A stretch of 64,000 nt of DNA from Alphaproteobacteria bacterium (GCA_965249135.1 OZ252220.1:1056001-1120000), one strand, 5' to 3'. Counted from the first letter of the stretch, positions 2,706 through 59,857 are shown. Notes: generated by a model from the sequence alone, not told the origin. A program made the numbers and translations.

Positions 2706-2828
2706 CGAAACCCCTTGAAAATAAAGACTTGTAAAAATGTAGCGTCAAAACTAGTTACAGTTATTGACGGAACTTTACGAGAACTAACGTGCAATTACGA
2801 TAAAATACGTGCAAAATCCGCGCACGCC

Positions 2829-2843
2829 GTTCTTGATGTGTTC
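2829..2843 (+). promoter_or_regulatory. alphaproteobacterial LexA (SOS) box
   Basis: GTTC-TTGATGT-GTTC (GTTC-N7-GTTC) upstream of GGGAGG and ATG at 2859. Confidence 0.6.
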
Positions 2844-47776: not shown

Positions 47777-47853
47777 CGGAGTGTAGCTCAGCCTGGTAGA
47801 GCACCGTCTTCGGGAGGCGGGGGTCGGTGGTTCAAGTCCACTCACTCCGACCA
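47777..47853 (+). tRNA. tRNA-Pro(CGG)
   Basis: CGGAGTG acceptor stem, D arm, CCGTC-TTCGGGA-GGCGG anticodon arm, TTCAAG loop, CCA end. Confidence 0.97.
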
Positions 47854-47936: not shown

Positions 47937-48086
47937 GGGGATTATATACGAAAGTCACATTTTACCGGTAAAGAGGATGGCCGGTGCATCTGCAACAGAA
48001 AAGGTGTCATTTAAGTCACGATTTCGCCACATCTCTGGCAGTTCAGCAATGCCAGCGCCAAAATGTGACTTTCGTATATAATCCCC
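47937..48086. mobile_element. 150-bp IS1595-derived MITE with perfect 27-bp TIRs
   Basis: GGGGATTATATACGAAAGTCACATTTT / AAAATGTGACTTTCGTATATAATCCCC. Confidence 0.9.
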
Positions 48087-48206
48087 AAAAATATAGGGAG
48101 GTTTCATATTGACGAAGGCCTAGATGTGCACAGAATTATGGGGGCACTTGAGAAGGCCGGTGGATGACCCTGAAATTATCTTCGGGGAAGATGTTCGAGT
48201 GCTGTT

Positions 48207-48896
48207 CTATTTAGCAGCGGCCGTTAACGCTACGATAATTCCAATAATCGCTATGCCAGCGCTGACGACGACCGGAACAATCCATCTTATGCTATCTACC
48301 GAGGTAGTGAGCCTAGTAACGTCAGTGGCTAATTCCGCCACGTTACTACTTAAGGAGCGGAGCGTCGTCATCATTTCCGATAATGCCATACCTTCGCTTT
48401 CGGTGATGAACTCGATTTCTTCTGCGCCAAGTTCATCCCTGTCCTGGTAGGGGCCGTTATATGGCTCGCTCGCGGCTTCCTCAAGGCGGTGGAACTCGAC
48501 AGAAATCAGATCATCTTTGTGCGGCAGAGAAACAGGCTTTGGCGTCAAGTTTGTGAGTCCGATTATCAACCGCCCCCGATAGCCGGGGTCGATTTGGGGG
48601 CCAGTGGTCGCGATTAGACCCTTCCGGGCATATTTCGAACGAAGGCCAAATCGAGCGGCGTATTGAGCGCCGAGCTCTATTTTCTCAAAAACCACTACTA
48701 CCGCAAAGTCGCCGGGCGCAAGTTGAACAAACCCATCTTTCTTAATATCAACCCTGCGTTTGGTGCTTGTAGTGGCCCCCTGATCTCCAACCCTTAGATC
48801 GTAAGTTGCAGCCTGGACTTGCCGATCGTCAAACGGCTCAATCTTGATGTCACCATTCTCCACAGCTTCTCTAATCTGACGATCAGTAAGAATCAT
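48207..48896 (-). CDS. dCTP deaminase/dUTPase-fold protein with C-terminal coiled coil and TM helix
   Basis: MILTDRQI, YDLRVG, RSKYARKG, IDPGYRG, YNGPYQ; tail WIVPVVVSAGIAIIGIIVAL; AGGAG RBS. Confidence 0.88.
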   Translation of the reverse strand: MILTDRQIREAVENGDIKIEPFDDRQVQAATYDLRVGDQGATTSTKRRVDIKKDGFVQLAPGDFAVVVVFEKIELGAQYAARFGLRSKYARKGLIATTGPQIDPGYRGRLIIGLTNLTPKPVSLPHKDDLISVEFHRLEEAASEPYNGPYQDRDELGAEEIEFITESEGMALSEMMTTLRSLSSNVAELATDVTRLTTSVDSIRWIVPVVVSAGIAIIGIIVALTAAAK

Positions 48897-48921
48897 TGGC
48901 TTATTCTCCTAGTGCACTATA

Positions 48922-48936
48922 GAACAAAATAAGAAC
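48922..48936 (-). promoter_or_regulatory. alphaproteobacterial LexA (SOS) box
   Basis: GAAC-AAAATAA-GAAC, adjacent to a minus-strand TATAGT (-10-like), 26-40 bp upstream of the Dcd-like start. Confidence 0.7.
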
Positions 48937-49139
48937 AAATACAACCACCCTGAATGCTCTTACTTGTCCTAATTTGAAAGCCGGGCGTCCTATTTAGGAC
49001 AGCACCCTAAGCATCGGCACCTGGATATCGGATACGTAGTATCACGGTGGACGCAGGCCAAGCCAGAGCAGTGTTGGAAAAGCTGAAGCGCGGGGAAAAA
49101 CGCGGGGAAAACCCGCTAAGAGGTTGAAGCGTAAAAAAG

Positions 49140-50196
49140 GGGGATTATATACGAAAGTCACATTTTACCGGTAAAGAGGATGGCCGGTGCATCTGCAACA
49201 GAAAAGGTGTCATTTAAGTCACGATTTCGCCACATCTCTGGCAGTTCAGCGGTGGCTCTTTCCCGGCGCTTTCTTGCTCATGATCCGTCCTCTTGTAACG
49301 CGTTATTTGCGCACCCTTGTAGCCTTCGCTTAGGTCCGCTAGATCATTGTCGGGGCCCTGCCTAATTCATAACGCGCAGGCGCATCGCTGTTCTTTTGCT
49401 TCGCCATAATCGCATCATAGTGCTGATGTACATCAATGTACATTGATGCGCTTGCTGCCTAATGGGGAGTTAAGTATATAATTCCCCAATTAAAGGGGAT
49501 TATATACGAAAGTCACATTTTACCGGTAAAGAGGATGGCCGGTGCATCTGCAACAGAAAAGGTGTCATTTAAGTCACGATTTCGCCACATCTCTGGCAGT
49601 TCAGCGGTGGCTCTTTCCCGGCGCTTTCTTGCTCATGATCCGTCCTCTTGTAACGCGTTATTTGCGCACCCTTGTAGCCTTCGCTTAGGTCCGCTAGATC
49701 ATTGTCGGGGCCCTGCCTAATTCATAACGCGCAGGCGCATCGCTGTTCTTTTGCTTCGCCATAATCGCATCATAGTGCTGATGTACATCAATGTACATTG
49801 ATGCGCTTGCTGCCTAATGGGGAGTTAAGTATATAATTCCCCAATTAAAGGGGATTATATACGAAAGTCACATTTTACCGGTAAAGAGGATGGCCGGTGC
49901 ATCTGCAACAGAAAAGGTGTCATTTAAGTCACGATTTCGCCACATCTCTGGCAGTTCAGCGGTGGCTCTTTCCCGGCGCTTTCTTGCTCATGATCCGTCC
50001 TCTTGTAACGCGTTATTTGCGCACCCTTGTAGCCTTCGCTTAGGTCCGCTAGATCATTGTCGGGGCCCTGCCTAATTCATAACGCGCAGGCGCATCGCTG
50101 TTCTTTTGCTTCGCCATAATCGCATCATAGTGCTGATGTACATCAATGTACATTGATGCGCTTGCTGCCTAATGGGGAGTTAAGTATATAATTCCC
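49140..50196. repeat. three identical 347-bp TIR-bounded units (49140-49486, 49495-49841, 49850-50196) separated by CAATTAAA
   Basis: Period 355 bp; each unit starts GGGGATTATATACG and ends AAGTATATAATTCCC. Confidence 0.95.
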
Positions 50197-50331
50197 CAAA
50201 AAAAAGATGGAAAAAAGAGGAGTCTACTTGACACAAAACGAAGATTAGAGGAGTACACTTGTCACAGCTTGGGGCAAGCAGGATTCCAATAATGATCGAT
50301 TACTCAGCCCGCCTTTCAGCGGCATATCCGA
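50197..50331. repeat. 135-bp copy of 20180-20314
   Basis: Identical by eye; starts at the first base after the TIR. Confidence 0.9.
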
Positions 50332-51285: not shown

Positions 51286-51861
51286 CTAAGGCTTTTTAGG
51301 AGCTTCTGCATCTCTGCCTCCTAACAGTTTCCCTAGGGCCTGGAGAGGGCCCGCGCCTTTGATTCCCATTTTTTCGCTCGACCGCTTGTAGACATAGATG
51401 CCGAGGACCGAGAGCCCGATGCCCCAAAGTGCGGTGAGCTCGGCGATTGAACTCACAACGCGCCCGGTACGTTCTGGATGCCAGGCAATCACGTAGGCAA
51501 CGGCGAGCATCTGTGCGAGCCAAGTAAACGCCATGATGTAGCCGAAGGTCGGACGCATCCGGGCGACGTACTTGTCCTTGCTGGTGCTTTCCACCCGCAT
51601 CGTTTTGTTGATGGTCTCAAGGCGGCGGGTTTCCTGCTCATACATGCCAAGCTCGAAGGCTTGCGCCGCCTTCTGAAATTCCAGTTGTTTCGTCGGGTCC
51701 GCTTTGAGGGCGTCGAGTGCCGCCTGACCGTCGTCCTGGCCGGTGATGATCTTCGCCATGCCGACAATTTCATTCGCCGCCTCTTCCGCCTTCTCGCCGC
51801 CAAGCCAGCGGGCCAAATACGGGGCAGCCACTTCAGCGATGCCGAGCGCGAGTGAGATCAT
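51286..51861 (-). CDS. holin-like protein (3TM-holin type)
   Basis: INKTMRVE..S.D.YVARMRPTFGY, TM helices, LGIYVYKRSSEK. Confidence 0.78.
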   Translation of the reverse strand: MISLALGIAEVAAPYLARWLGGEKAEEAANEIVGMAKIITGQDDGQAALDALKADPTKQLEFQKAAQAFELGMYEQETRRLETINKTMRVESTSKDKYVARMRPTFGYIMAFTWLAQMLAVAYVIAWHPERTGRVVSSIAELTALWGIGLSVLGIYVYKRSSEKMGIKGAGPLQALGKLLGGRDAEAPKKP

Positions 51862-52322
51862 GTTGCACCTTCATAAAGCTGGACAAATTTTTCGACGCGG
51901 CCCGCGCCGAGGGGCGTATTGTAGTGCTGCTTCCAGTAGGCGGCGAGATCGAAGACGTCCTCGGCCGCCGGCAGGGGCTCAGGCCTTCGCAAGTAGTGGA
52001 CGCGCACCATCGCCGTCGCATAGGCAAGATTCGTTACGAGCTGAGCGTGGCGGTCGGGTTCCTTCGCGAGAAAGGCATCGACTTGAAGCGGTAAAGCGTC
52101 ATTTCGGAAATCGAGGAAATTCTTCCAAATGTCGTCATGGGTGGCGGGCTCCATCTGATAGAGGCCAAGCGCCGGCCCCTCGCCATGTTGCCGGAGATAG
52201 GTAAGGCGGCTTTCGGCAAGCGCCGTTCCCAAAAGCAGATTCTCGGCCGCCTCCGACCACAGACCGATCTTCTGAAGGATCGGTCGAATGACGTGTTTCC
52301 GAAAATGAATCGGCGCGATCAT
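51858..52322 (-). CDS. putative endolysin (lysozyme/transglycosylase-like)
   Basis: LLLGTALAES..YLRQ..GPALGLYQMEPAT..YWKQHYNT; position in lysis module. Confidence 0.75.
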   Translation of the reverse strand: MIAPIHFRKHVIRPILQKIGLWSEAAENLLLGTALAESRLTYLRQHGEGPALGLYQMEPATHDDIWKNFLDFRNDALPLQVDAFLAKEPDRHAQLVTNLAYATAMVRVHYLRRPEPLPAAEDVFDLAAYWKQHYNTPLGAGRVEKFVQLYEGAT

Positions 52323-52326
52323 TGCT

Positions 52327-52650
52327 TCAAAACAAATCGTAGCGTTCGATAATGAAAAGAATGGTCGGGATTGAGACCGCTATAACCGCAAGCCACCACC
52401 GTCTTCGCCCGAGGGCTTGGGCCACTTTCTTCTCTTTTCTTTCAAGCCGCTCTGCCTCGGCCCTGTCCCGCTCACCGCTAAGCGTGATTCCTTCCTTAAC
52501 GAGGTCGCGCAAACTGTGTACGCATTTGGAGAGCCTGTCGTTAATTCCATCCTGCCGCTCAATGTATTCGCCAAACTTATCGGCAAGGGCATTAACGCCC
52601 GTCTCAAGCGATGCCATGCGCTCGTTTATGTTTTTATGGACGGCGGGCAT
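52327..52650 (-). CDS. coiled-coil protein with C-terminal TM helix
   Basis: ATG at 52650 coupled to the upstream stop; position equivalent to 7119-7406. Confidence 0.6.
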   Translation of the reverse strand: MPAVHKNINERMASLETGVNALADKFGEYIERQDGINDRLSKCVHSLRDLVKEGITLSGERDRAEAERLERKEKKVAQALGRRRWWLAVIAVSIPTILFIIERYDLF

Positions 52651-53408
52651 CAGCTCACCGCCCCTTTCAGTTGTGAGGCTGGAGGCGTCCCGCCGGTCCA
52701 TGTAACCGACCCGCCGCCGAGGGCGATCGCCAAAGCAGCAGAGCCGCCCGGGCCGGGGCTGCCCTGTCCCGTTCCGCCACTATTACCCGCAGCGCCAGGC
52801 GCTCCGCCAGACTCACCGTTACCACCAAACCCTTGAGGTCCTTTTTGACCACCACCACCACCGGCCGTTTCCGTCCCCGCACTACCAGCAGTAGCTCCAA
52901 GTCCACCGCCGTTGCCGCCAGCACCAACATTGCGCCCGGCTCCACCACCACCGCCACCACCGCCATCCGCTGCACCACCGGCTCCTCCCCCCCCTCCTCC
53001 ACCGCCGCCGAAGATAAGGCCGGTCGAAAAGAGGTTGATGATGGTGCGGAAACCGCCAAGCGCGAGCGCGTCTCCACCAGTAAGGCCCGGCTGACCAGTA
53101 CCACCAAGCGCCCCTCCACCAGCGCCTCCAACGCCACCCATCCCTCGAATCCCGGAGCCGTCCTGAACGTCGATGTAGAGCAGGCTTCGCGCAATGATCG
53201 TCGCGTCGATGGTCCCCAACGAGAGCGCCGCCGTCGCCGTCGACGTTGCGTAGAGATCCATGCTGTTCGTGACGAGCAGGCGCAGGATCGCCGCCGTGGT
53301 GCCGTTCCACCCGACGCTCTCGAAGAGTGTCTCAATGGTCTGATCCGCAGCGTCCGCGCTGAGGGTCTTCGTGAAAACCTGCATACCTGGAGGCGCGGCA
53401 TTCCACAT
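52650..53408 (-). CDS. glycine-rich tail-tip adhesin (gp38-like)
   Basis: IRGMGGVG..GGDAL..IFGGGGGGGGG; paralogue of 7583-8353. Confidence 0.7.
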   Translation of the reverse strand: MWNAAPPGMQVFTKTLSADAADQTIETLFESVGWNGTTAAILRLLVTNSMDLYATSTATAALSLGTIDATIIARSLLYIDVQDGSGIRGMGGVGGAGGGALGGTGQPGLTGGDALALGGFRTIINLFSTGLIFGGGGGGGGGAGGAADGGGGGGGGAGRNVGAGGNGGGLGATAGSAGTETAGGGGGQKGPQGFGGNGESGGAPGAAGNSGGTGQGSPGPGGSAALAIALGGGSVTWTGGTPPASQLKGAVS

Positions 53409-54281
53409 TTACGAGAAGTCCTGCTGGAAGCTGCAATAGAGATTCGTCCCGTCGCTCACCGCGTAGATGATGTCGACGGCGGCCGCTGTGGTCGTGAGCG
53501 TCAGCGCGACCCCGGCCGGGAATTTATAGACCGCGTTGTAGGCGAGCGTCCGGGATCCGATCCCGTCCTGGGTGATGATAAAAACATAGTTGCCTGCCAC
53601 GAGGTTCGTCGGTGCTCCGAGGGTGCGGTTGCCGCCGAGCGTCACCGTGAAGAGATTGGCAAGCGAGGCGTCGACGGCGATCGTTGCCGCATCGGTTAGC
53701 GCGGAAGCCGCCCCGCCTTGCCGCTTCGTGAAAAGATGGGCGACGCCGGTCTTAACGATTGTGGCATCGAAGGCCTCGACGTCCGTTCCGATCACGAGGC
53801 CGAGATTCACCCGGCCCGTCGCTGCGCTCGCCAGGTCGGAGAGGTTCTGCGCGCCTTTGAGGAAAGAGCCGAGGGGCGTCGCGTCGTTCGTCGACAGGAT
53901 CGAGAGATAGCCGGTCAGCGTCTCGTTTGACATCGAGCCCGAATCCCAGGACACCGTGACCGTCGTGTCCGGGGCGGAGTAGGAGCTCACCGTGATCGTC
54001 CCGTAGATCGTGCCGGCCGCGGAGCCCGTGACCTTGATCCGGCGGTTGACCAAGTAGCGCGCCGTGACGTCGGTCGCCACCGTGAACTGCGTGCCGGAGA
54101 GGTAGGTGAGCGTGTCGCCCCAGTTGAACCACTCGGCATCTTCCATCTGCGTGCGGATCGCCGCCATCACCTCGCGGGAGCTATCGTTCACCCCGGAAGC
54201 GGCCATGCCTTCCTTAAAGCCGTCCGGGGAGGTGGCGTTGTTGCTGGCAGCCGTTTTCGACCATGCGGAGATCGCACTCAT
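53409..54281 (-). CDS. phage tail fibre protein
   Basis: WSKTAASN..EGMAASGVNDSSREVMA; VTLGGNRTLGAPTN..QDGIGSRTL. Confidence 0.75.
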   Translation of the reverse strand: MSAISAWSKTAASNNATSPDGFKEGMAASGVNDSSREVMAAIRTQMEDAEWFNWGDTLTYLSGTQFTVATDVTARYLVNRRIKVTGSAAGTIYGTITVSSYSAPDTTVTVSWDSGSMSNETLTGYLSILSTNDATPLGSFLKGAQNLSDLASAATGRVNLGLVIGTDVEAFDATIVKTGVAHLFTKRQGGAASALTDAATIAVDASLANLFTVTLGGNRTLGAPTNLVAGNYVFIITQDGIGSRTLAYNAVYKFPAGVALTLTTTAAAVDIIYAVSDGTNLYCSFQQDFS

Positions 54282-57200
54282 TTCGCTGGCTCCTTCTGCT
54301 TCTCAATGTCTTCGATGACGTCCTTCGCATAGCGGTGCTGCTCCACGATCAGATCGTCACGCAAGGCGCGCTTCAGTTTACTCATGTCGTACCAAGCCCC
54401 GGATCTGCGGAGCCGGTCCTCATAGCCTCGCTTCGTGGATATCTTGGCGCGTTCGCGCGCGAGCTCCTGCAAGGGTTCGATGTCGCGAGCGTAGAGAACG
54501 CGAGCCATGTCCTGATTGATTGCTCGGAGCTGCTTCTCTGCCCGCGACAGTTGACCGTATAAGAGGTTTTCCCGTTTGTTCTCGATGTCGTCGGCGATGT
54601 CCGGCCGGTAGGTCTTGTCCATGTGACGGAGCGTGCGCCGCGCTTTCGTGGCTTCACCGATCAGTTCGTAGACCTTGGTTACATACTTCGAGTGCCCGCC
54701 CGGGTGCTGGCGGTAGAAGCGCCGGATCAGCGGGTACTGGTCGAGGCGCATCTCTGGCATGTCGTCGAACAGCGCCACGTCGAGAAGCGTAAGGCCGTAC
54801 ATGCCCCAGGTGTGGAAGTAGCCACGGATGAGCGATTCGAACTGCGCCGGAGAGAGTTGGGCCGCCCCCGGCCAGTCGCGCATCGTCTCGCCCAAGCGCC
54901 GCAGCATCTCGCTGCCATAGGGGCCGGAGCGCGCCCACGGCTCGAGGTCCTTCATGGCCTCGCTTTCGATCGGCCGATCGGAGAAGCGATTTTCATTGAT
55001 CGCCAGCTCGTAAAGAGGCGCGAAGGCGGCCGGGATGTATTCCATCCGGAACACCTCGGCGATGACGCGCGCCATGTGCTTCGCCGCCTCAACCGGCTCG
55101 GCGTCGAGGATCCCCTCGAGAGCCCGCTCCGCCGCCGAGGCCACCGCGCCGATCTCCCAGATCTTCGGATATTGGAAATGTTCGTATCGCTCATCGAGCG
55201 GCGGGAGGTCCTGCCCCGTCGCCCAGGCGGTGATCGCCTCTTCCGTCGGAATGAAGAAGTGCCAGTAGAGATCCTTCCGCCAATCCTCGAGGTCGTCGTA
55301 GAGTGGGTTCCCCCTGTTGATCGCGTAGAGGCCCATGCTAAGGAGCGCCAGCATCCCGGTCCGGAAGGCGATCTGCCGACGATTCGGGTCCTTGAAGAGA
55401 CCGCGATAACCCCGGTCTATGCCGTTGACGGCCGCCTTCAGGAAGATGATCGTGTCGTAGAAGAAGCCGATCGCCAGGCTGTCGCCGCGCATCCCGAAGT
55501 CCGTCGAGACCTCGCGCGCTGCATAGGCCGCCTCCTTCGGGTGTGCGCCTGCCGCACGCGCCCGGCCATACTCGCCGAGCCGGGTCGCCATCTCGAAGGC
55601 ATTGGCGAACCGCTCAAGCGCCAGGAAAAGACGATCAGGGGTGTCGAGGACCATCTTCCAGTCGATCCCCTTCTTGCCGTAGAACTCACGGGTCATGCGG
55701 TTGAGCTCGCGCCTAGCCGAATCCTCATCGACTAGGTAGGACGAGAAGCCGACGCCGTTGGCGATCGCCTCCTTGTAGAGGGGATCTTCAAGCACCCGAC
55801 TTTTCAGGCCCTTCCAGGAATCAAGAGCGAAGCGGAAACCGAACTTCGAGAAGATCGTCCCCATCAGCGTGTCGCGGGCGATGTTTGCGGCCATGAAATC
55901 AATGGTCAGCGTGATCGTGGCTTGACCAATTCGCTTTGGGACAGCAAGCCACTTCACGATCCAATGCTTCGCTGGCCGGTTGAGGGCGTGGAAGGAGCGC
56001 AGCACAAGGTCGTCGTAGACCTCGAAGAAGGTGGTCTCGCCGTTGAACATGACGGCGACGACGTTCTCGCCAGAAGGCTTCTGATTGTGGGCCCAAAACT
56101 CGACCAGCGGGCCTTGCCGCTCGAGGGCGTCGAGCAGCTCCTCGATGCCTTCCGGCAGGCCTGCGAGCCTCACCCCGCCCTTCGCCCGCATGAGCCGGGC
56201 CGCCGTCGGCGGGATGCCGAGTGTGTCCATGATGGTTTGCTCGATCGACTGCGTGGTGACACTCAGCTTGCGGCTGTCCTTCGGGATCCGCGCCATGAAG
56301 CGCGCGCCGCCTTTCTTCTGCAATACCTCGGCCGCCTTCTGACGCGCCTCGTTAGTGAGCGCCGCGTCGATCAGCATGGAGACGTTCTGCACCATGTTAC
56401 CGAGCACATCGCGCAGGTTGCCGGTGCCGCCGGTCAGCATCTTGATCCCGGTCCAATCGCCGGGTGTTCCCTTCGCCTTGCCGGTCGGCGCGGTCTTGCT
56501 GACCCGGTTGAAGGGGATGTAGACGTCGGTCTCCCATTCCTTGCGCTTGGCCGGGTTGATGACGCCACGCGCCTGGGCGAAGTCGAGGATCCCCTTGTTG
56601 AAGGCCTGGTAGTCCTTGAGCACGCCATCGAAGAGCTCCCGCTGTTCCCGGGTGACGTCCTGCATGGCTTTGATCTCGCCCGGCGTGAACAGCCGCTCCC
56701 GGCCTTGGCCTCGCAGATAATCCGCGCGCTTCGCCACCGCGTAGGCCAGATAGTCGTCGAGCTGCTCGCCGACCGGCTCTAGCAATTCCATGAGGCCTTT
56801 GCCCTCGAAGCGGATGGAGCCGTCCTCTTGGGTGACGGGGATGCCGTATTTGATGGCCCCTTCGACGACAGTGTGCTTGCCCCGGGTGAGCCGCGCCGTC
56901 TTATACATGCCATCCCAGGAGGTCGAGCCCGTGAGGGCAGTTTCCATCTTGAGCCAGCCGTCGAGGTCGTCCGTCACGCCCTGGCGGAATCGCTCCCAAA
57001 TCGAATCGAGCGCCGCGTTCATCTCACCGCCATCGCCGATCTTCGACTTGCCCCGGGTGGCGAGGTCCTGGGCGAACCAGTCGTGCATGTCGGCTTGGGA
57101 TTCACGGAGCGCCGGGCCGTATTCGCTCTTGCCGATGAAGTCCTCAAACCAGGCGTAGAAGTTTGGCGCGGCGGCGCGGGCCTTGTCGCGCTGCGTCGAC

Positions 57201-59857
57201 CACAAGCGCACGAACTCGGCAAAGCCCTCGTAGGTTTTCTTCACGTCGTAGGAGACGCTTTGCAGCTCCTTGCGGAACAGTTTCGCGCGTGCCGATTTTC
57301 CCTTCCATTGCTGCGAGATCTCCGGGATCCGGCTATCGAGCAGATGGGCGAACTCGTGGGCCGCGACCTCTATGTCGTTCATGTTCTTGAGGCGCACCTC
57401 TTCGACGTTGTGGCGGAAGAAGCCAAGACGTTTGCCGCCCTTGACCCGACCCTGGTAGAGGGGCACGCCGAGCGCCTTGGTGAGTTTGCGGAGGATCGCC
57501 TCGCGCCGCAGCGGTTCCTTCTTCTGCGGACCATTGGCGATCTCGCGGATCTTCGCCGCCAGGCCTGCAAGCGCGGCGTCGCCGGCCGGACTCTGGATGA
57601 CCTCGCCCGGCATATCTCCAACCATGCCGACGTATCGCGTGCCCGCCTCCATCCCACTCGTCCCGGTTCGGCTCGCTGCCGTGTCAGTCAGCGTGTCCCC
57701 GCCTTCCGACACGCCAAGGTCGATCTCCAGATTCATAATCTTCTCGATCTCCCGGTTGGTAAGAGTCTCCATGTCGATGCCGGAGCGGAAAAGCGCCTCG
57801 TCGAGATCCCGCATCATCGCGTGGCGCTGGACAAGCATCTCATCCTTCGGGTGGGTGAGCTGCGCTTGGCCGGTGAAGTCGCCCCGCAGCGCCTCCAGGA
57901 ACTCGCGCGCGCTCGGCGGTCCTTCCTGGTGCATGGGAAAGAACCCCTCTTCCCAGGCTCGCTCGGCCGCTTCCTCGAAGGTGCGCCCCTTCTTGCTGAC
58001 CAAGCCTGGCCGGGTCGTGGATGAGACGCCCATCGTTGCCAACTCGCCGGATTCCTCACGAATCCCGCCTTCCTTGACAAGGAACCGCGTGAGCGTCTGC
58101 GGTTGCTTCGGCATCGCGCCCTTGCCGCGCATCAGATTTAGGGCTTCTTCAAGATGGGGGTTGCCAGCCGGTTCCTGGATGACGGGTGTCTTGGGTTCTG
58201 CGCCTGCTTCTTCTTCCGTCGTCTCTTTGGGCACCGCAACTGGCTCAAGTTTTTGTGCATTTTCTAGGTTGAGGCGGCGCACAACCTCTTCTGCATTGAC
58301 CGGCGCGTGCGCAAAAGGCTCGACGATATGCGAAGGATCGTTCTTATCGCGTCCAGTGGTAGTCGTGAAATTACCGGCTTTATCGACCTTTCCGACTGTG
58401 GTGAAGGATCCATCTTCAGCGATGAAAGTGTCGCCAACAGAAATGTCTGAGGCGGAGAAATTGCCGACTTTTCCAGAGCGATTTAATCTAGCTGCTTCCC
58501 CGCCTCTCCAAAATTCCCCTTCTGCGGCCTCTGGCTGAGCGGTCGTTTGCGTGGTTTCGCCTTCCTGTGGTTCCGGACCGCCGCCGTCGGCAGGCGTTTC
58601 ACCACCTGGCTCATCATGTCCGGTGCGAACCGGGCCGCGCACCTTGAAGCCGAGCATTGCGGCGAAAACGCTGAACATGAAGCCAATCGTCACCCCGATG
58701 CCGGTGCTTTCGGCCGCCGGTTTGAGCAGCTCACGCTCCGGGTCGTAGAGCTTCTGTGCAATCGCCCAATCCATGACCGACTGGAAGAGCTCCTGGGCTC
58801 CTTCCTCAGCCCCGCCCTTAAGGCCCTCCTTGATGACCTTCCGAAGCGTTCCGCCGGTCGCCTTGTCGTAGCGATCAAGAAGCCGTGCGATCGGCGCACC
58901 TTCGGAAAGACCGACCACCGCTCCGAGCTTCGAGGCCTCGTAGGCGGTTTCCAGATCCGCGCCGCTGTGAACCGCATCCTCGAACTGTGAGGTCGCCTGG
59001 GCCGACGCGCCGAGCGTGGCCGCCGAAGCACCTGCGACCATCATGCCGGGCCCGGCCAGGATACGGCCGACGATACCGGCGGCGGCGAAGCCAGCGGTTG
59101 ATCCAACGCCGCGCATGAGCTTGTGGCTGATCGTCTCTTCGGCTTCCGGGTCCGTCGGGATCGCTTCCCGGGTCGCCTCCTGCATCTGCTCGCCGAATTG
59201 GTAGAGGAAATTGTCCTCCGGGCGGCGCGGATCTCCGAGGCCTTCGCGGATCTTCACCCGCGCTTCCGGCGTGGCTTGCTGGTAGCGGTGGACCGTCGCG
59301 GAATTCACCATCGGCAAACCGAAGGGGCTCACCTGCTCGCCTGCGTCGATCTTGTCGAGGGCCCCGAGGATCCGCGTGTCGCCCGCCTCGATAGCGATTG
59401 CGATGGACTTCGGCACACTGGCGACGACATCGACGGCCGACTGCGCGGCGGCGGCCAGCGCGCTCGGGATGTTGGGGCGGACTTGGTTGATCTCGAGCTC
59501 GGCCTGCTCCTTCGTTACCCCCTCGTAATCCGGGTTCTTGCCGGTGAGGGCGATGTAGCGAGCCTTCCATTGCCGCTCGGCGGCTCCATCCTCATCGTGC
59601 ACGACACCGCTAAAGGCGTTCTCGCCCTCGACGTAAGATTGGAACTCTGCGCCCGGACGATGCCACTCCAGCGGCTTTAATTCTGTTTTCGGTGTGAACA
59701 CGTCCTCGGTTGGGATGGGAGCCGCCTCGGGAGCGGCCACCGGAGCAGGCGACATGGTCGCCTCGCCCTCAAAAACCTCGTCCATCGAGAGCAGCTCCTC
59801 ATCCGGCTGAGTGGCCGGGGAGCCGAAAACCTCCTCCATGCTGAGAAGATCCGCCAT
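54278..59857 (-). CDS. large polyvalent DNA-injection protein (1859 aa, LPD38-like C-terminus)
   Basis: EEGAQE, AAHEFAHLLD, FEMATRLGEY, DFGMRG, YPKIWEIG. Confidence 0.82.
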   Translation of the reverse strand: MADLLSMEEVFGSPATQPDEELLSMDEVFEGEATMSPAPVAAPEAAPIPTEDVFTPKTELKPLEWHRPGAEFQSYVEGENAFSGVVHDEDGAAERQWKARYIALTGKNPDYEGVTKEQAELEINQVRPNIPSALAAAAQSAVDVVASVPKSIAIAIEAGDTRILGALDKIDAGEQVSPFGLPMVNSATVHRYQQATPEARVKIREGLGDPRRPEDNFLYQFGEQMQEATREAIPTDPEAEETISHKLMRGVGSTAGFAAAGIVGRILAGPGMMVAGASAATLGASAQATSQFEDAVHSGADLETAYEASKLGAVVGLSEGAPIARLLDRYDKATGGTLRKVIKEGLKGGAEEGAQELFQSVMDWAIAQKLYDPERELLKPAAESTGIGVTIGFMFSVFAAMLGFKVRGPVRTGHDEPGGETPADGGGPEPQEGETTQTTAQPEAAEGEFWRGGEAARLNRSGKVGNFSASDISVGDTFIAEDGSFTTVGKVDKAGNFTTTTGRDKNDPSHIVEPFAHAPVNAEEVVRRLNLENAQKLEPVAVPKETTEEEAGAEPKTPVIQEPAGNPHLEEALNLMRGKGAMPKQPQTLTRFLVKEGGIREESGELATMGVSSTTRPGLVSKKGRTFEEAAERAWEEGFFPMHQEGPPSAREFLEALRGDFTGQAQLTHPKDEMLVQRHAMMRDLDEALFRSGIDMETLTNREIEKIMNLEIDLGVSEGGDTLTDTAASRTGTSGMEAGTRYVGMVGDMPGEVIQSPAGDAALAGLAAKIREIANGPQKKEPLRREAILRKLTKALGVPLYQGRVKGGKRLGFFRHNVEEVRLKNMNDIEVAAHEFAHLLDSRIPEISQQWKGKSARAKLFRKELQSVSYDVKKTYEGFAEFVRLWSTQRDKARAAAPNFYAWFEDFIGKSEYGPALRESQADMHDWFAQDLATRGKSKIGDGGEMNAALDSIWERFRQGVTDDLDGWLKMETALTGSTSWDGMYKTARLTRGKHTVVEGAIKYGIPVTQEDGSIRFEGKGLMELLEPVGEQLDDYLAYAVAKRADYLRGQGRERLFTPGEIKAMQDVTREQRELFDGVLKDYQAFNKGILDFAQARGVINPAKRKEWETDVYIPFNRVSKTAPTGKAKGTPGDWTGIKMLTGGTGNLRDVLGNMVQNVSMLIDAALTNEARQKAAEVLQKKGGARFMARIPKDSRKLSVTTQSIEQTIMDTLGIPPTAARLMRAKGGVRLAGLPEGIEELLDALERQGPLVEFWAHNQKPSGENVVAVMFNGETTFFEVYDDLVLRSFHALNRPAKHWIVKWLAVPKRIGQATITLTIDFMAANIARDTLMGTIFSKFGFRFALDSWKGLKSRVLEDPLYKEAIANGVGFSSYLVDEDSARRELNRMTREFYGKKGIDWKMVLDTPDRLFLALERFANAFEMATRLGEYGRARAAGAHPKEAAYAAREVSTDFGMRGDSLAIGFFYDTIIFLKAAVNGIDRGYRGLFKDPNRRQIAFRTGMLALLSMGLYAINRGNPLYDDLEDWRKDLYWHFFIPTEEAITAWATGQDLPPLDERYEHFQYPKIWEIGAVASAAERALEGILDAEPVEAAKHMARVIAEVFRMEYIPAAFAPLYELAINENRFSDRPIESEAMKDLEPWARSGPYGSEMLRRLGETMRDWPGAAQLSPAQFESLIRGYFHTWGMYGLTLLDVALFDDMPEMRLDQYPLIRRFYRQHPGGHSKYVTKVYELIGEATKARRTLRHMDKTYRPDIADDIENKRENLLYGQLSRAEKQLRAINQDMARVLYARDIEPLQELARERAKISTKRGYEDRLRRSGAWYDMSKLKRALRDDLIVEQHRYAKDVIEDIEKQKEPAK

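What the first reader, a model, noticed from the sequence alone, without database searches (positions are those of the whole stretch)
48207..48936. LexA-box-preceded dCTP-deaminase-fold protein lacking the catalytic Glu, fused to a coiled coil and TM helix
Seen: S87/R91 (RSKYARKG) and D103 (IDPG) are retained. The position ten residues after that Asp is Gly113 (GRLIIGLTN instead of GxITLELxN). A ~75-aa extension ends in a hydrophobic helix, and GAAC-N7-GAAC sits at 48922-48936. Known: E. coli Dcd is a soluble trimer using S111/R115/E138; GTTC-N7-GTTC is the alphaproteobacterial LexA site; many anti-phage systems couple nucleotide sensing to membrane effectors. Inference: a DNA-damage-induced pyrimidine dNTP sensor with a membrane effector, a candidate single-gene defence or abortive-infection system.
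Basis: partly seen in the sequence, partly recalled or inferred. Interest (0 to 1): 0.8.

Follow-up and report, generated by a model that had tools for sequence, protein, structure and literature searches.

The report
SOS-controlled membrane-anchored dUTPase-like protein
This prophage-borne gene encodes a membrane-tethered relative of dUTP-hydrolysing enzymes that appears to be switched on by DNA damage, and its relatives in several bacterial phyla carry the same kind of damage-responsive switch.

Summary
A 229-aa ORF (48207-48896, minus strand) has a Dcd/dUTPase-fold domain with Ser87, Arg91 and Asp103, and Gly113 where dCTP deaminases have the catalytic Glu. It also has a 74-aa helical extension ending in a C-terminal TM helix, and a perfect GTTC-N7-GTTC lies 26 nt upstream.

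- LexA control is well supported. The host's own lexA and a PA0069-type radical-SAM gene carry the same box. Homologues carry lineage-appropriate LexA operators in Actinomycetota/Chloroflexota (6 of 7), Acidobacteriota (9 of 17) and Alphaproteobacteria (7 of 14, one mismatch allowed).
- Loss of Glu does not imply a non-catalytic sensor. The closest solved relatives are active archaeal dUTPases that also lack it. All hydrolysis and lid motifs are conserved. In three Planctomycetota loci the gene sits inside an nrdD-nrdG operon.
- A defence role is not supported. There are no PADLOC hits, no conserved partner gene, and the neighbours are heterogeneous.

My best reading is an SOS-induced, homotrimeric, tail-anchored pyrimidine dNTP pyrophosphatase (dUTPase-like), mobile and accessory. 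The reason for the membrane tether is unknown. It is a new variant of a known kind, and I found no description of it in the literature searches I ran.

The parts
48207..48896 (-). CDS, 229 aa: Glu-less Dcd/dUTPase-fold domain + coiled-coil stalk + C-terminal TM anchor
   Evidence: Pfam DCD 1e-24; TIGR02274 106.8 bits against a cut-off of 92.8
48432..48896 (-). Catalytic-type domain, residues 1-155 (S87, R91, Q101, D103, G113, N116, lid motif PYNGPYQ 145-151)
   Evidence: alignment to dUTPases 9ln0/8y1w, E 3e-22; Foldseek TM-score (target) 0.93-0.94, rmsd 1.2 A; invariant columns
48558..48560 (-). Codon GGA = Gly113, at the position of the deaminase catalytic Glu
   Evidence: invariant Gly in 18 of 18 close relatives; Glu in only 2 of 151 rows (query plus 150 representatives)
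48285..48425 (-). Helical stalk, residues 158-204, predicted three-stranded coiled coil; highly conserved ESEGMALSE..LRSLS.NV segment
   Evidence: AF2 helices; heptad-spaced inter-chain contacts 159-226 in the trimer model; conservation
48216..48284 (-). C-terminal transmembrane helix, residues ~205-227 (tail anchor)
   Evidence: hydropathy script; AF2 helix to residue 228; conserved W205, P208, G214
48922..48936 (-). LexA-type operator GTTCTTATTTTGTTC (GTTC-N7-GTTC)
   Evidence: The same motif lies 33 nt upstream of the host lexA and 25 nt upstream of a PA0069-family radical-SAM gene
48916..48921 (-). -10-like hexamer TATAGT directly abutting the operator. With TTGTAT (48939-48944) as a weak -35, the operator fills the 17-nt spacer
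   Evidence: read directly. The consensus scan did not call it because the -35 matches only 3 of 6. This is inference
48905..48910 (-). Ribosome-binding site AGGAGA
   Evidence: read directly
47937..48086 (.). 150-bp MITE-like element with perfect 27-nt terminal inverted repeats, downstream flank of the gene
   Evidence: I1
49140..50199 (.). Three perfect tandem copies of a 355-bp MITE-like element with the same termini, upstream flank of the gene
47777..47853 (+). tRNA-Pro(CGG), left boundary of the ~38.5-kb prophage/island that carries the gene
   Evidence: A 25-nt partial repeat lies at window coordinate 86386 and an integrase at genome 1141745-1142212

Best explanation
The gene encodes an SOS-regulated, horizontally acquired, tail-anchored homotrimer of the Dcd/dUTPase superfamily. 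Its cytoplasmic domain is of the 'Dcd-like dUTPase' type found in archaea. It lacks the deaminase Glu but keeps the phosphate-binding Ser/Arg, the catalytic Asp of the (I/V)DPG motif and the C-terminal lid PYxGxYQ. Proposed mechanism: LexA sits on a GTTC-N7-GTTC operator that fills the promoter spacer. DNA damage (RecA*) removes LexA and the protein is made. It inserts by its C-terminal helix and trimerises through the catalytic domain and a three-helix stalk. At the inner face of the membrane it hydrolyses dUTP, or a related pyrimidine dNTP, to dNMP + PPi. This trims the dUTP pool while repair and translesion synthesis (or prophage replication) run. Shown here: the architecture, the family conservation, operator conservation across phyla, and the accessory/prophage location. 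Inferred: the enzyme activity, the trimer and topology (predictions only), and the physiological role. The purpose of the membrane tether is not explained.
For: Fold and sequence: the best PDB matches are dUTPase P45 (9ln0/9ln3) and Thermococcus pacificus dUTPase with dUMP (8y1w), at E 3e-22 to 7e-22, TM-score (target) 0.93-0.94, rmsd 1.2-1.5 A and 32-34% identity. Both have Met, not Glu, at the G113 position. S87, R91, Q101, D103, N116, Y146 and Q151 are invariant in 18 of 18 close relatives. In the 151 rows (query plus 150 best 50%-identity representatives), D103 is Asp in 137, S87 is Ser or Thr in 130, and the Glu position is G64/S23/T21/A12/N9, with Glu in only 2. AF2 gives mean pLDDT 91.6. 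Trimer model: score 0.82 against a best control of 0.14, partner pLDDT at least 82, runs agreeing in at least 89% of contacts; in calibration the mark was reached by 20 of 30 proteins solved as pairs of one chain and 1 of 23 solved as single chains. Because Dcd/dUTPase trimers are solved, the catalytic-domain part may be recalled likeness. The heptad contacts 159-226 are the new part. LexA: the host lexA has GTTCTACTTTGGTTC 33 nt upstream, and a PA0069-family radical-SAM gene has GTTCTTGCTTTGTTC 25 nt upstream. Homologues: perfect GAAC-N4-GTTC at -29 to -32 in 6 of 7 Actinomycetota/Chloroflexota loci (background 0.0086 per 100 nt), plus Nitrospirota L035. GTTC-N7-GTTC with at most 1 mismatch occurs in 7 of 14 evaluated alphaproteobacterial loci, all on the coding strand (background 0.076 per 100 nt). 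TTCGC-N5-[AG]TTC occurs in 9 of 17 Acidobacteriota loci (background 0.005 per 100 nt; 14 hits in all the flanks), and the same motif, (A/G)TTCGCTTTTTATTC, sits before the -10 of lexA in 5 of 5 of those genomes examined. Four further loci have an adjacent Peptidase_S24 protein; HTH_3 was also matched in L008, the only one of two checked that showed it. Metabolic link: in 3 Planctomycetota loci the gene lies on the same strand between nrdD (ATP-cone + NRDD, E 1e-125) and a radical-SAM NrdG-like gene.
Against: No enzymology exists for any member. The genome already has a canonical dut (175 bits) and a canonical dcd with the Glu, so a third pyrimidine enzyme is not obviously needed. A membrane tether has no known role for a dUTPase. 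The stalk segment is more conserved than a passive linker would need to be. Rare relatives replace the tail with an Mrr_cat nuclease (P0267) or other domains, and one (P0149) has lost D103 and S87; both fit a sensor/effector logic. No LexA-type box was found in 18 gammaproteobacterial-type loci beyond chance (2 with 1 mismatch), nor in 8 Verrucomicrobiota/Planctomycetota loci. The box in this window is not significant as a bare pattern. The Acidobacteriota pattern was partly defined after seeing these upstream regions.
Confidence: 0.55

Rival explanations
1. One reading: a DNA-damage-induced pyrimidine-dNTP sensor coupled to a membrane effector. In this model the dUTPase-like domain binds a nucleotide, lid closure is transmitted through the directly attached three-helix stalk to the TM bundle, and the membrane is perturbed. 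That would make it a single-gene abortive-infection, defence or prophage-encoded suicide/exclusion module.
For: The lid motif (145-151) runs straight into the stalk and TM helix. The stalk is highly conserved. The C-terminal module is swapped for Mrr_cat in P0267, there are tandem-duplicated forms with 2 TM helices, and one relative has a degenerate active site. Here the gene is cargo at the end of a tRNA-Pro prophage next to the lysis genes, at 48-49% GC against 60% for the genome, and is flanked by MITEs. Distribution is patchy: 310 relatives confirmed in a scan of 185,579 species genomes, many phyla among the 80 loci kept, with 0 of 5 same-genus and 1 of 35 same-class genomes. A few neighbours are defence-like (MADS, SoFic, AbiEi, AAA_21) or IS transposases.
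Against: The protein matches 0 PADLOC families. There is no conserved partner. The 297 scanned neighbours are mostly heterogeneous, including tRNA synthetases, purD, nrdD and smc. The catalytic residues are as conserved as in real enzymes. The C-terminal module was found only with the DCD domain: 109 of 109 hits either carry PF22769 or are short pieces of 126-138 aa with no Pfam domain on record. No close member occurs in 50,697 phage or 72,556 plasmid records.
Confidence: 0.2
2. An SOS checkpoint protein. This would be a functional analogue of the small LexA-controlled membrane proteins that halt division or replication after damage, with the nucleotide domain lowering a local dNTP pool or serving as a scaffold.
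For: LexA control plus a single TM helix is the hallmark of that class (recalled: SidA, YneA, ChiZ). The operator is conserved in several phyla. One passage of a review (PMC6590174) notes that dcd and ndk defects that alter dNTP pools shut down SOS, so feedback between pyrimidine dNTPs and SOS is plausible.
Against: There is no homology to any known division inhibitor. The gene is accessory, with 0 of 5 congeners carrying it, whereas checkpoints are usually core genes. The nrdDG operon context in Planctomycetota points to metabolism instead.
Confidence: 0.1
3. A genuine dCTP deaminase, as automatic annotation says.
For: TIGR02274 (equivalog 'dCTP deaminase') scores 106.8 bits, above its cut-off of 92.8. 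Sources name relatives 'dCTP deaminase'.
Against: The catalytic Glu is replaced by Gly113 and is absent across the family. The genome has a separate Dcd with ...HVTLEFSN. The closest solved proteins are dUTPases.
Confidence: 0.03

Closest known systems
Archaeal Dcd-like trimeric dUTPases (Pyrococcus 'P45' dUTPase, PDB 9ln0/9ln3; Thermococcus pacificus dUTPase, 8y1w)
   Same: Same fold (TM-score 0.93-0.94, rmsd 1.2-1.5 A, 32-34% identity). Same RS..AR.G, (I/V)DPG and PY.G.YQ motifs. Both lack the deaminase Glu.
   Different: Those are soluble proteins of ~155 aa. This one adds a conserved 74-aa coiled-coil stalk and a C-terminal TM anchor, is bacterial and prophage-borne, and is under a LexA operator.
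Bacterial dCTP deaminase / bifunctional Dcd-Dut (E. coli 1xs1, M. tuberculosis 2qxx, M. jannaschii 1ogh)
   Same: Same superfamily and trimer type. Passes the TIGR02274 cut-off.
   Different: The catalytic Glu is Gly. The match is weaker (E 1e-8 to 6e-10, 22-25% identity). The host has its own Dcd.
LexA-regulated accessory genes of Alphaproteobacteria, Acidobacteria and Actinobacteria (for example the PA0069-type radical-SAM gene)
   Same: Same operator type and the same position relative to the start codon as the host's lexA and radical-SAM genes.
   Different: I found no description of a Dcd/dUTPase-family SOS gene in searches for dCTP deaminase or dUTPase combined with LexA, LexA box or SOS regulon. 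Those searches cover only the open-access library.
Nucleotide-depleting anti-phage enzymes (defence dCTP deaminase, dGTPase)
   Same: A pyrimidine-dNTP-directed enzyme on a mobile element; it could in principle deplete a dNTP.
   Different: No PADLOC model matches. As recalled and not tested here, the defence dCTP deaminase is a zinc cytidine-deaminase-fold protein, not a dUTPase-fold one. There is no defence-island signal.

Membership tests
dCTP deaminase (Dcd, TIGR02274) | Profile score above the curated cut-off | tested here: met
   106.8 bits against a cut-off of 92.8
dCTP deaminase (Dcd, TIGR02274) | Catalytic Glu (E138 in E. coli numbering) in the ..TLE..N motif | tested here: not met
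   Gly113 aligns with the Glu of 2qxx. Invariant Gly in 18 of 18. Glu in 2 of 151 rows
dCTP deaminase (Dcd, TIGR02274) | Ser/Arg of the RS..AR.G motif | tested here: met
   S87 and R91 invariant
Dcd-like (archaeal-type) trimeric dUTPase | Fold match to solved dUTPases of this subtype | tested here: met
   9ln0, 8y1w, 9ln3: E 2e-17 to 3e-16, TM-score (target) 0.93-0.94
Dcd-like (archaeal-type) trimeric dUTPase | Asp of the (I/V)DPG motif and C-terminal lid PYxGxYQ present; no deaminase Glu | tested here: met
   Residue-by-residue alignment; conservation
Dcd-like (archaeal-type) trimeric dUTPase | Homotrimer | tested here: inconclusive
   Prediction only: score 0.82 against a best control of 0.14. 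Calibration: 20 of 30 pairs and 1 of 23 single chains reached the mark. Likeness to solved trimers may explain the pass
Dcd-like (archaeal-type) trimeric dUTPase | dUTP -> dUMP + PPi activity | not testable with these tools
   Needs an enzyme assay
LexA (SOS) regulon | Operator of the host's LexA type within the promoter | tested here: met
   Perfect GTTC-N7-GTTC 26 nt upstream. The same motif occurs at the host's lexA and radical-SAM gene
LexA (SOS) regulon | Operator conserved upstream of orthologues, in each lineage's own LexA dialect | tested here: met
   6 of 7 Actinomycetota/Chloroflexota, 9 of 17 Acidobacteriota, 7 of 14 Alphaproteobacteria. Not seen in gamma-type, Verrucomicrobiota or Planctomycetota loci
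LexA (SOS) regulon | LexA binding and damage induction | not testable with these tools
   Needs EMSA or an expression assay
Known anti-phage defence systems (PADLOC-DB v2) | Match to a defence-system protein model | tested here: not met
   0 families at E <= 1
Known anti-phage defence systems (PADLOC-DB v2) | Recurrent placement in defence islands | tested here: inconclusive
   Among 150 first and 147 second neighbours, no family occurs in more than 5 members. A few are defence-like and many are housekeeping
Tail-anchored membrane protein | Single TM helix at the extreme C-terminus, no N-terminal signal | tested here: met
   Hydropathy window at residues 200-218+ and an AF2 helix to residue 228. 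Most of the representatives (my reading of the per-protein list; not tallied) show a C-terminal TM window. Prediction only

The most novel reading that the evidence does not exclude
The family is a cross-phylum, LexA-controlled, nucleotide-gated membrane effector. The dUTPase-type lid is welded to a three-helix coiled coil and a three-TM bundle, so binding or hydrolysis of a pyrimidine dNTP (for example dUTP, or a phage-modified dCTP that accumulates after DNA damage or prophage induction) would be transduced to the membrane. The outcome would be growth arrest, depolarisation or lysis timing. That would be a one-gene SOS suicide/abortive module carried by prophages and IS-rich islands, with Mrr-nuclease and other C-terminal variants as alternative effectors.
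Probability: 0.17. Interest if true: 0.85.

Novelty: new variant of a known kind. Interest (0 to 1): 0.6.

Why it matters
If this holds, the SOS regulons of at least three or four phyla share a previously unnoticed accessory member: a dUTPase-superfamily enzyme fixed to the membrane by a conserved trimeric stalk. That would link the DNA-damage response directly to pyrimidine dNTP pool control, and it raises the question of why a nucleotide hydrolase needs to sit at the membrane. It also corrects a widespread automatic annotation ('dCTP deaminase') for hundreds of proteins that cannot deaminate by the known mechanism. The family also offers a simple experimental system, since it is one gene with one operator. 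It could test whether dUTPase-fold lids can signal to attached modules, as the rare nuclease-fused relatives suggest.

Tried and rejected
- **Conserved neighbours.** All-against-all BLAST of 3036 ORFs within 5 kb in 80 loci found no partner. The largest non-self cluster was an IS1595-type transposase in 9 loci.
- **Own LexA against the loci.** tblastn of the host's LexA against the loci gave no hit and the script stopped on the empty output. phmmer and jackhmmer then found the four S24 neighbours.
- **PADLOC.** Nothing for the protein itself.
- **Phage and plasmid collections.** These gave only catalytic-domain matches below 60% identity, and none was a full-length family member. One phage place covers at least 80% of the query (MW450817.2, residues 1-203, 22.9% identity, spanning three annotated features) and no plasmid place does.
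- **C-terminal module alone (residues 152-229).** This hit only DCD-domain proteins or short pieces, so there is no evidence that the tail is a promiscuous effector.
- **Gamma-type and Verrucomicrobia-type LexA motifs.** CTGT-N8-ACAG gave 2 of 18 loci with 1 mismatch. GTTC-N4-GAAC gave 0 of 8.
- **Promoter scan.** The sigma-70 consensus scan did not call a promoter for the gene. The -10/-35 reading is mine.
- **Expression.** No RNA holder was listed for the stretch, and read laying was not used.
- **Earlier findings of this scan.** Nothing was found for this sequence.
- **ESM Atlas.** This returned only 'dCTP deaminase family' clusters.
- **Literature.** Eight searches found no paper on a TM-anchored or LexA-regulated Dcd/dUTPase-like protein, and no paper for PDB 8y1w. 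I saw only the search listings, except for one passage of PMC6590174. Supplementary files were not consulted.
- **Own SOS-box genes L090 and L091.** Neither matched any family, so they could not be used to extend the host's LexA regulon.

Full report
**1. The observation**

The ORF at 48207-48896 on the minus strand is real. It is 229 aa with an ATG start preceded by AGGAGA.

In the HMMER alignment to M. tuberculosis Dcd-Dut (2qxx), G113 lies opposite the Glu of ..HITLELSN. PDB titles identify that Glu (E138 in E. coli) as the residue mutated in Dcd studies.

Residues 156-229 form the extension. AlphaFold2, run on a 46-sequence alignment (mean pLDDT 91.6, pTM 0.74), predicts helices 158-170 and 172-228. 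My hydropathy script finds one TM window at the C-terminus.

GTTCTTATTTTGTTC lies at 48922-48936, 26 nt upstream of the ATG. As a bare pattern it is not significant: 4 matches in the window against 2.23 expected, and 19 of 100 shuffles reach 4. The 2.1-Mb genome holds 66 perfect matches. The case for function therefore has to come from elsewhere.

**2. What the protein is**

- Pfam gives DCD (PF22769, 1e-24), and NCBIfam TIGR02274 'dCTP deaminase' scores 106.8 bits against a cut-off of 92.8. This explains the 'dCTP deaminase' names that sources give to relatives.
- The closest solved proteins are not deaminases. dUTPase P45 (9ln0/9ln3) and Thermococcus pacificus dUTPase with dUMP (8y1w) match at E 3e-22 and 7e-22 by sequence. 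By fold they give TM-score (target) 0.93-0.94, rmsd 1.2-1.5 A and 32-34% identity. Bacterial Dcd and Dcd-Dut follow at 22-25% identity.
- Those dUTPases have ..NLTLMLYN, with Met at the G113 position. Absence of the Glu is therefore a normal feature of this dUTPase subtype.
- The motifs shared with them are conserved. RS..AR.G, (I/V)DPG and the lid PY.G.YQ are invariant in 18 of 18 close relatives.
- Across the 151 rows (query plus the 150 best representatives at 50% clustering), position 103 is Asp in 137 and position 87 is Ser or Thr in 130. The Glu position is G64, S23, T21, A12 or N9, with Glu in only 2.
- The genome separately encodes a canonical Dcd (161.6 bits..GHVTLEFSN, with the Glu) and a canonical Dut (175.3 bits). 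This gene is a third, accessory paralogue.

**3. The family**

- The word-index search found 794 proteins at E <= 0.001. The 120 listed are almost all 218-229 aa, cover 90-98% of the query and are 63-80% identical.
- The exhaustive search found 75 representatives at E <= 1e-30 and 871 at E <= 1e-10.
- The stalk segment (..EEIEFITESEGMALSEV..LRSLS.NV..) and the TM helix (W205, P208, G214) are conserved.
- Searching with residues 152-229 alone returned 109 proteins. All either carry the DCD domain or are short pieces.
- A trimer prediction passed: score 0.82 against a best control of 0.14, partner pLDDT at least 82, runs agreeing in at least 89% of contacts. In calibration, 20 of 30 pairs and 1 of 23 single chains reached the mark. 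Dcd and dUTPase trimers are solved, so the catalytic-domain interface may be recalled likeness. The informative part is the heptad-spaced contact series from residue 159 to 226, which indicates a parallel three-helix stalk continuing into a three-TM bundle.
- Variants exist among the representatives:
  - tandem-duplicated DCD domains with two TM helices (P0191, P0204, P0216, P0248);
  - a C-terminal Mrr_cat nuclease (P0267, 6e-22);
  - other non-TM C-terminal domains, mostly without a Pfam match (30 scanned: Mrr_cat 1, PaREP1 1, weak winged-helix hits 2);
  - one member (P0149) with D103 and S87 replaced.

**4. Regulation**

The host uses GTTC-N7-GTTC. Its lexA (168 bits) has GTTCTACTTTGGTTC 33 nt upstream. 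A PA0069-family radical-SAM gene (499.8 bits) has GTTCTTGCTTTGTTC 25 nt upstream. recA has a box 136 nt upstream. The box before our gene differs from the radical-SAM box only in the spacer. It is followed directly by TATAGT, and with TTGTAT as a weak -35 it fills a 17-nt spacer. That is my reading; the consensus scan did not call it.

The decisive evidence is comparative. The genome scan kept 80 loci of the 310 confirmed, and 77 had a usable upstream region.

| Lineage | Motif | Loci with motif in -100..+3 | Background per 100 nt |
|---|---|---|---|
| Actinomycetota/Chloroflexota | perfect GAAC-N4-GTTC, at -29 to -32 | 6 of 7 | 0.0086 |
| Nitrospirota (L035) | same motif, between a TTGACA and a TATAAT | 1 locus | n/a |
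| Alphaproteobacteria | GTTC-N7-GTTC, at most 1 mismatch, all on the coding strand at -29 to -53 | 7 of 14 (2 perfect) | 0.076 |
| Acidobacteriota | TTCGC-N5-[AG]TTC | 9 of 17 | 0.005 (14 hits in all flanks) |

- For the Acidobacteriota motif I fetched lexA from five of those genomes. All five have (A/G)TTCGCTTTTTATTC immediately before GCTATAAT. The element upstream of the family gene is therefore the local LexA operator.
- This pattern was partly defined after seeing the data, but the lexA promoters are independent.
- No box was found beyond chance in 18 gamma-type loci or in 8 Verrucomicrobiota/Planctomycetota loci.
- Four loci (two pairs of related genomes) instead have an adjacent Peptidase_S24 protein; HTH_3 was also matched in L008, but not in L050, the other one checked.

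**5. Genomic context**

- The gene sits in a low-GC patch (48-49% against 60% for the genome) at the end of a ~38.5-kb element.
- That element is bounded by tRNA-Pro (47777-47853) and a 25-nt partial repeat of it at window coordinate 86386. An integrase lies just inside that far end. A holin-family protein and a weak tail-fibre match lie at 51-53 kb, next to a 1859-aa ORF at 54278-59857.
- The gene is flanked by MITE-like elements.
- It was not found in 5 of 5 same-genus genomes (88-99% complete). It was found in 1 of 35 same-class genomes, at 32% identity.
- Across the 80 loci there is no conserved neighbour.
- The 150 nearest and 147 second-nearest ORFs are heterogeneous. They include IS1595 (5), IS1 (4), S24 (4), AAA_21 (4) and nrdD (3), along with tRNA synthetases, purD and smc. 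PADLOC models hit only scattered neighbours: MADS, SoFic and PDC-S04 in 2 each, with AbiEi and Type I methyltransferase in 1 each.
- In three Planctomycetota loci the gene lies on the same strand between nrdD and a radical-SAM activase-like gene. As recalled, class III reductases act on ribonucleoside triphosphates and so make dUTP directly. A dUTPase in that operon makes metabolic sense.
- No close member occurs in the phage or plasmid collections.

**6. Interpretation**

The best-supported reading is an SOS-induced, tail-anchored, trimeric dUTPase-like pyrophosphatase. Regulation and architecture are well supported. The activity is inferred from relatives, motif conservation and the nrdDG context. 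The role of the tether is open.

In its favour, the lid is continuous with a conserved stalk, rare relatives swap the tail for a nuclease, and the gene is prophage cargo. No positive defence signal was found.

**7. Novelty**

I found no description of a membrane-anchored or LexA-regulated Dcd/dUTPase-family protein in eight full-text searches. Those searches cover only the open-access library, and supplements were not seen. I rate this a new variant of a known kind. It has a known fold and probably known chemistry, combined with a new architecture and new regulon membership conserved across phyla.

Noticed in passing
window 47937-48086 and 49140-50199: A MITE-like family brackets the gene. One copy is a 150-bp element with perfect 27-nt terminal inverted repeats. 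The other is three 100%-identical tandem copies of a 355-bp element with the same termini. The 20-nt terminus occurs 14 times in the genome. Perfect tandem triplication of a MITE is unusual.
   Followed up: partly
window 48193-48207 (+): A second perfect GTTC-N7-GTTC (GTTCGAGTGCTGTTC) overlaps the stop codon of the gene, so the ORF is bracketed by two such motifs. It may be chance.
   Followed up: no
window 2770-2784 (-), 2829-2843 (+); integrase-like ORF 866-1855: Two GTTC-N7-GTTC boxes lie 59 nt apart. The second is ~20 nt upstream of an ATG at 2861, next to a tyrosine-integrase match. The segment is duplicated 46.7 kb upstream in the genome at 99.8% identity over 2.3 kb and 1.8 kb. This may be a second LexA-controlled mobile-element gene.
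   Followed up: partly
window 47777-47853 to beyond the window (about 86.4 kb in window coordinates): A ~38.5-kb prophage-like island sits at tRNA-Pro(CGG). It has a holin-family protein (51286-51861), a phrog_3108 protein (51858-52322), a glycine-rich protein with a weak tail-fibre match (52650-53408) and a 1859-aa ORF (54278-59857). The integrase lies at the far end, next to a 25-nt partial tRNA repeat.
   Followed up: partly
L100-L104 (lexA promoters of five Acidobacteriaceae genomes): All five lexA genes are preceded by (A/G)TTCGCTTTTTATTC directly before GCTATAAT. This gives a clean definition of the local LexA operator as GTTCGC-N5-ATTC, a variant of the alphaproteobacterial direct repeat.
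   Followed up: yes
L036, L043, L069 (Planctomycetota): The family gene is embedded in an nrdD - small ORF - gene - radical-SAM (NrdG-like) operon, all on one strand.
   Followed up: partly
P0191, P0204, P0216, P0248; P0267; P0159/P0179; P0149: Relatives show other architectures: tandem-duplicated Glu-less DCD domains with two C-terminal TM helices; an Mrr_cat nuclease fusion; a ~110-aa soluble C-terminal domain with no Pfam match; and a zinc-ribbon-led member with a degenerate active site.
   Followed up: partly
genome G000:C1:1043365-1043619 (outside the window, about 12.6 kb upstream of it): There is a second, partial LexA-like match (N-terminal DNA-binding part only, 55.7 bits) with an in-frame TGA. 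A third match to the C-terminal part of the lexA model (positions 75-198) lies at 1928786-1929178.
   Followed up: no
window 49102-49116 (-): A terminator-like hairpin (GCGGGTTTTCCCCGC followed by a T-run) lies between the MITE array and the gene's promoter. It would insulate the LexA-controlled promoter from read-through.
   Followed up: no
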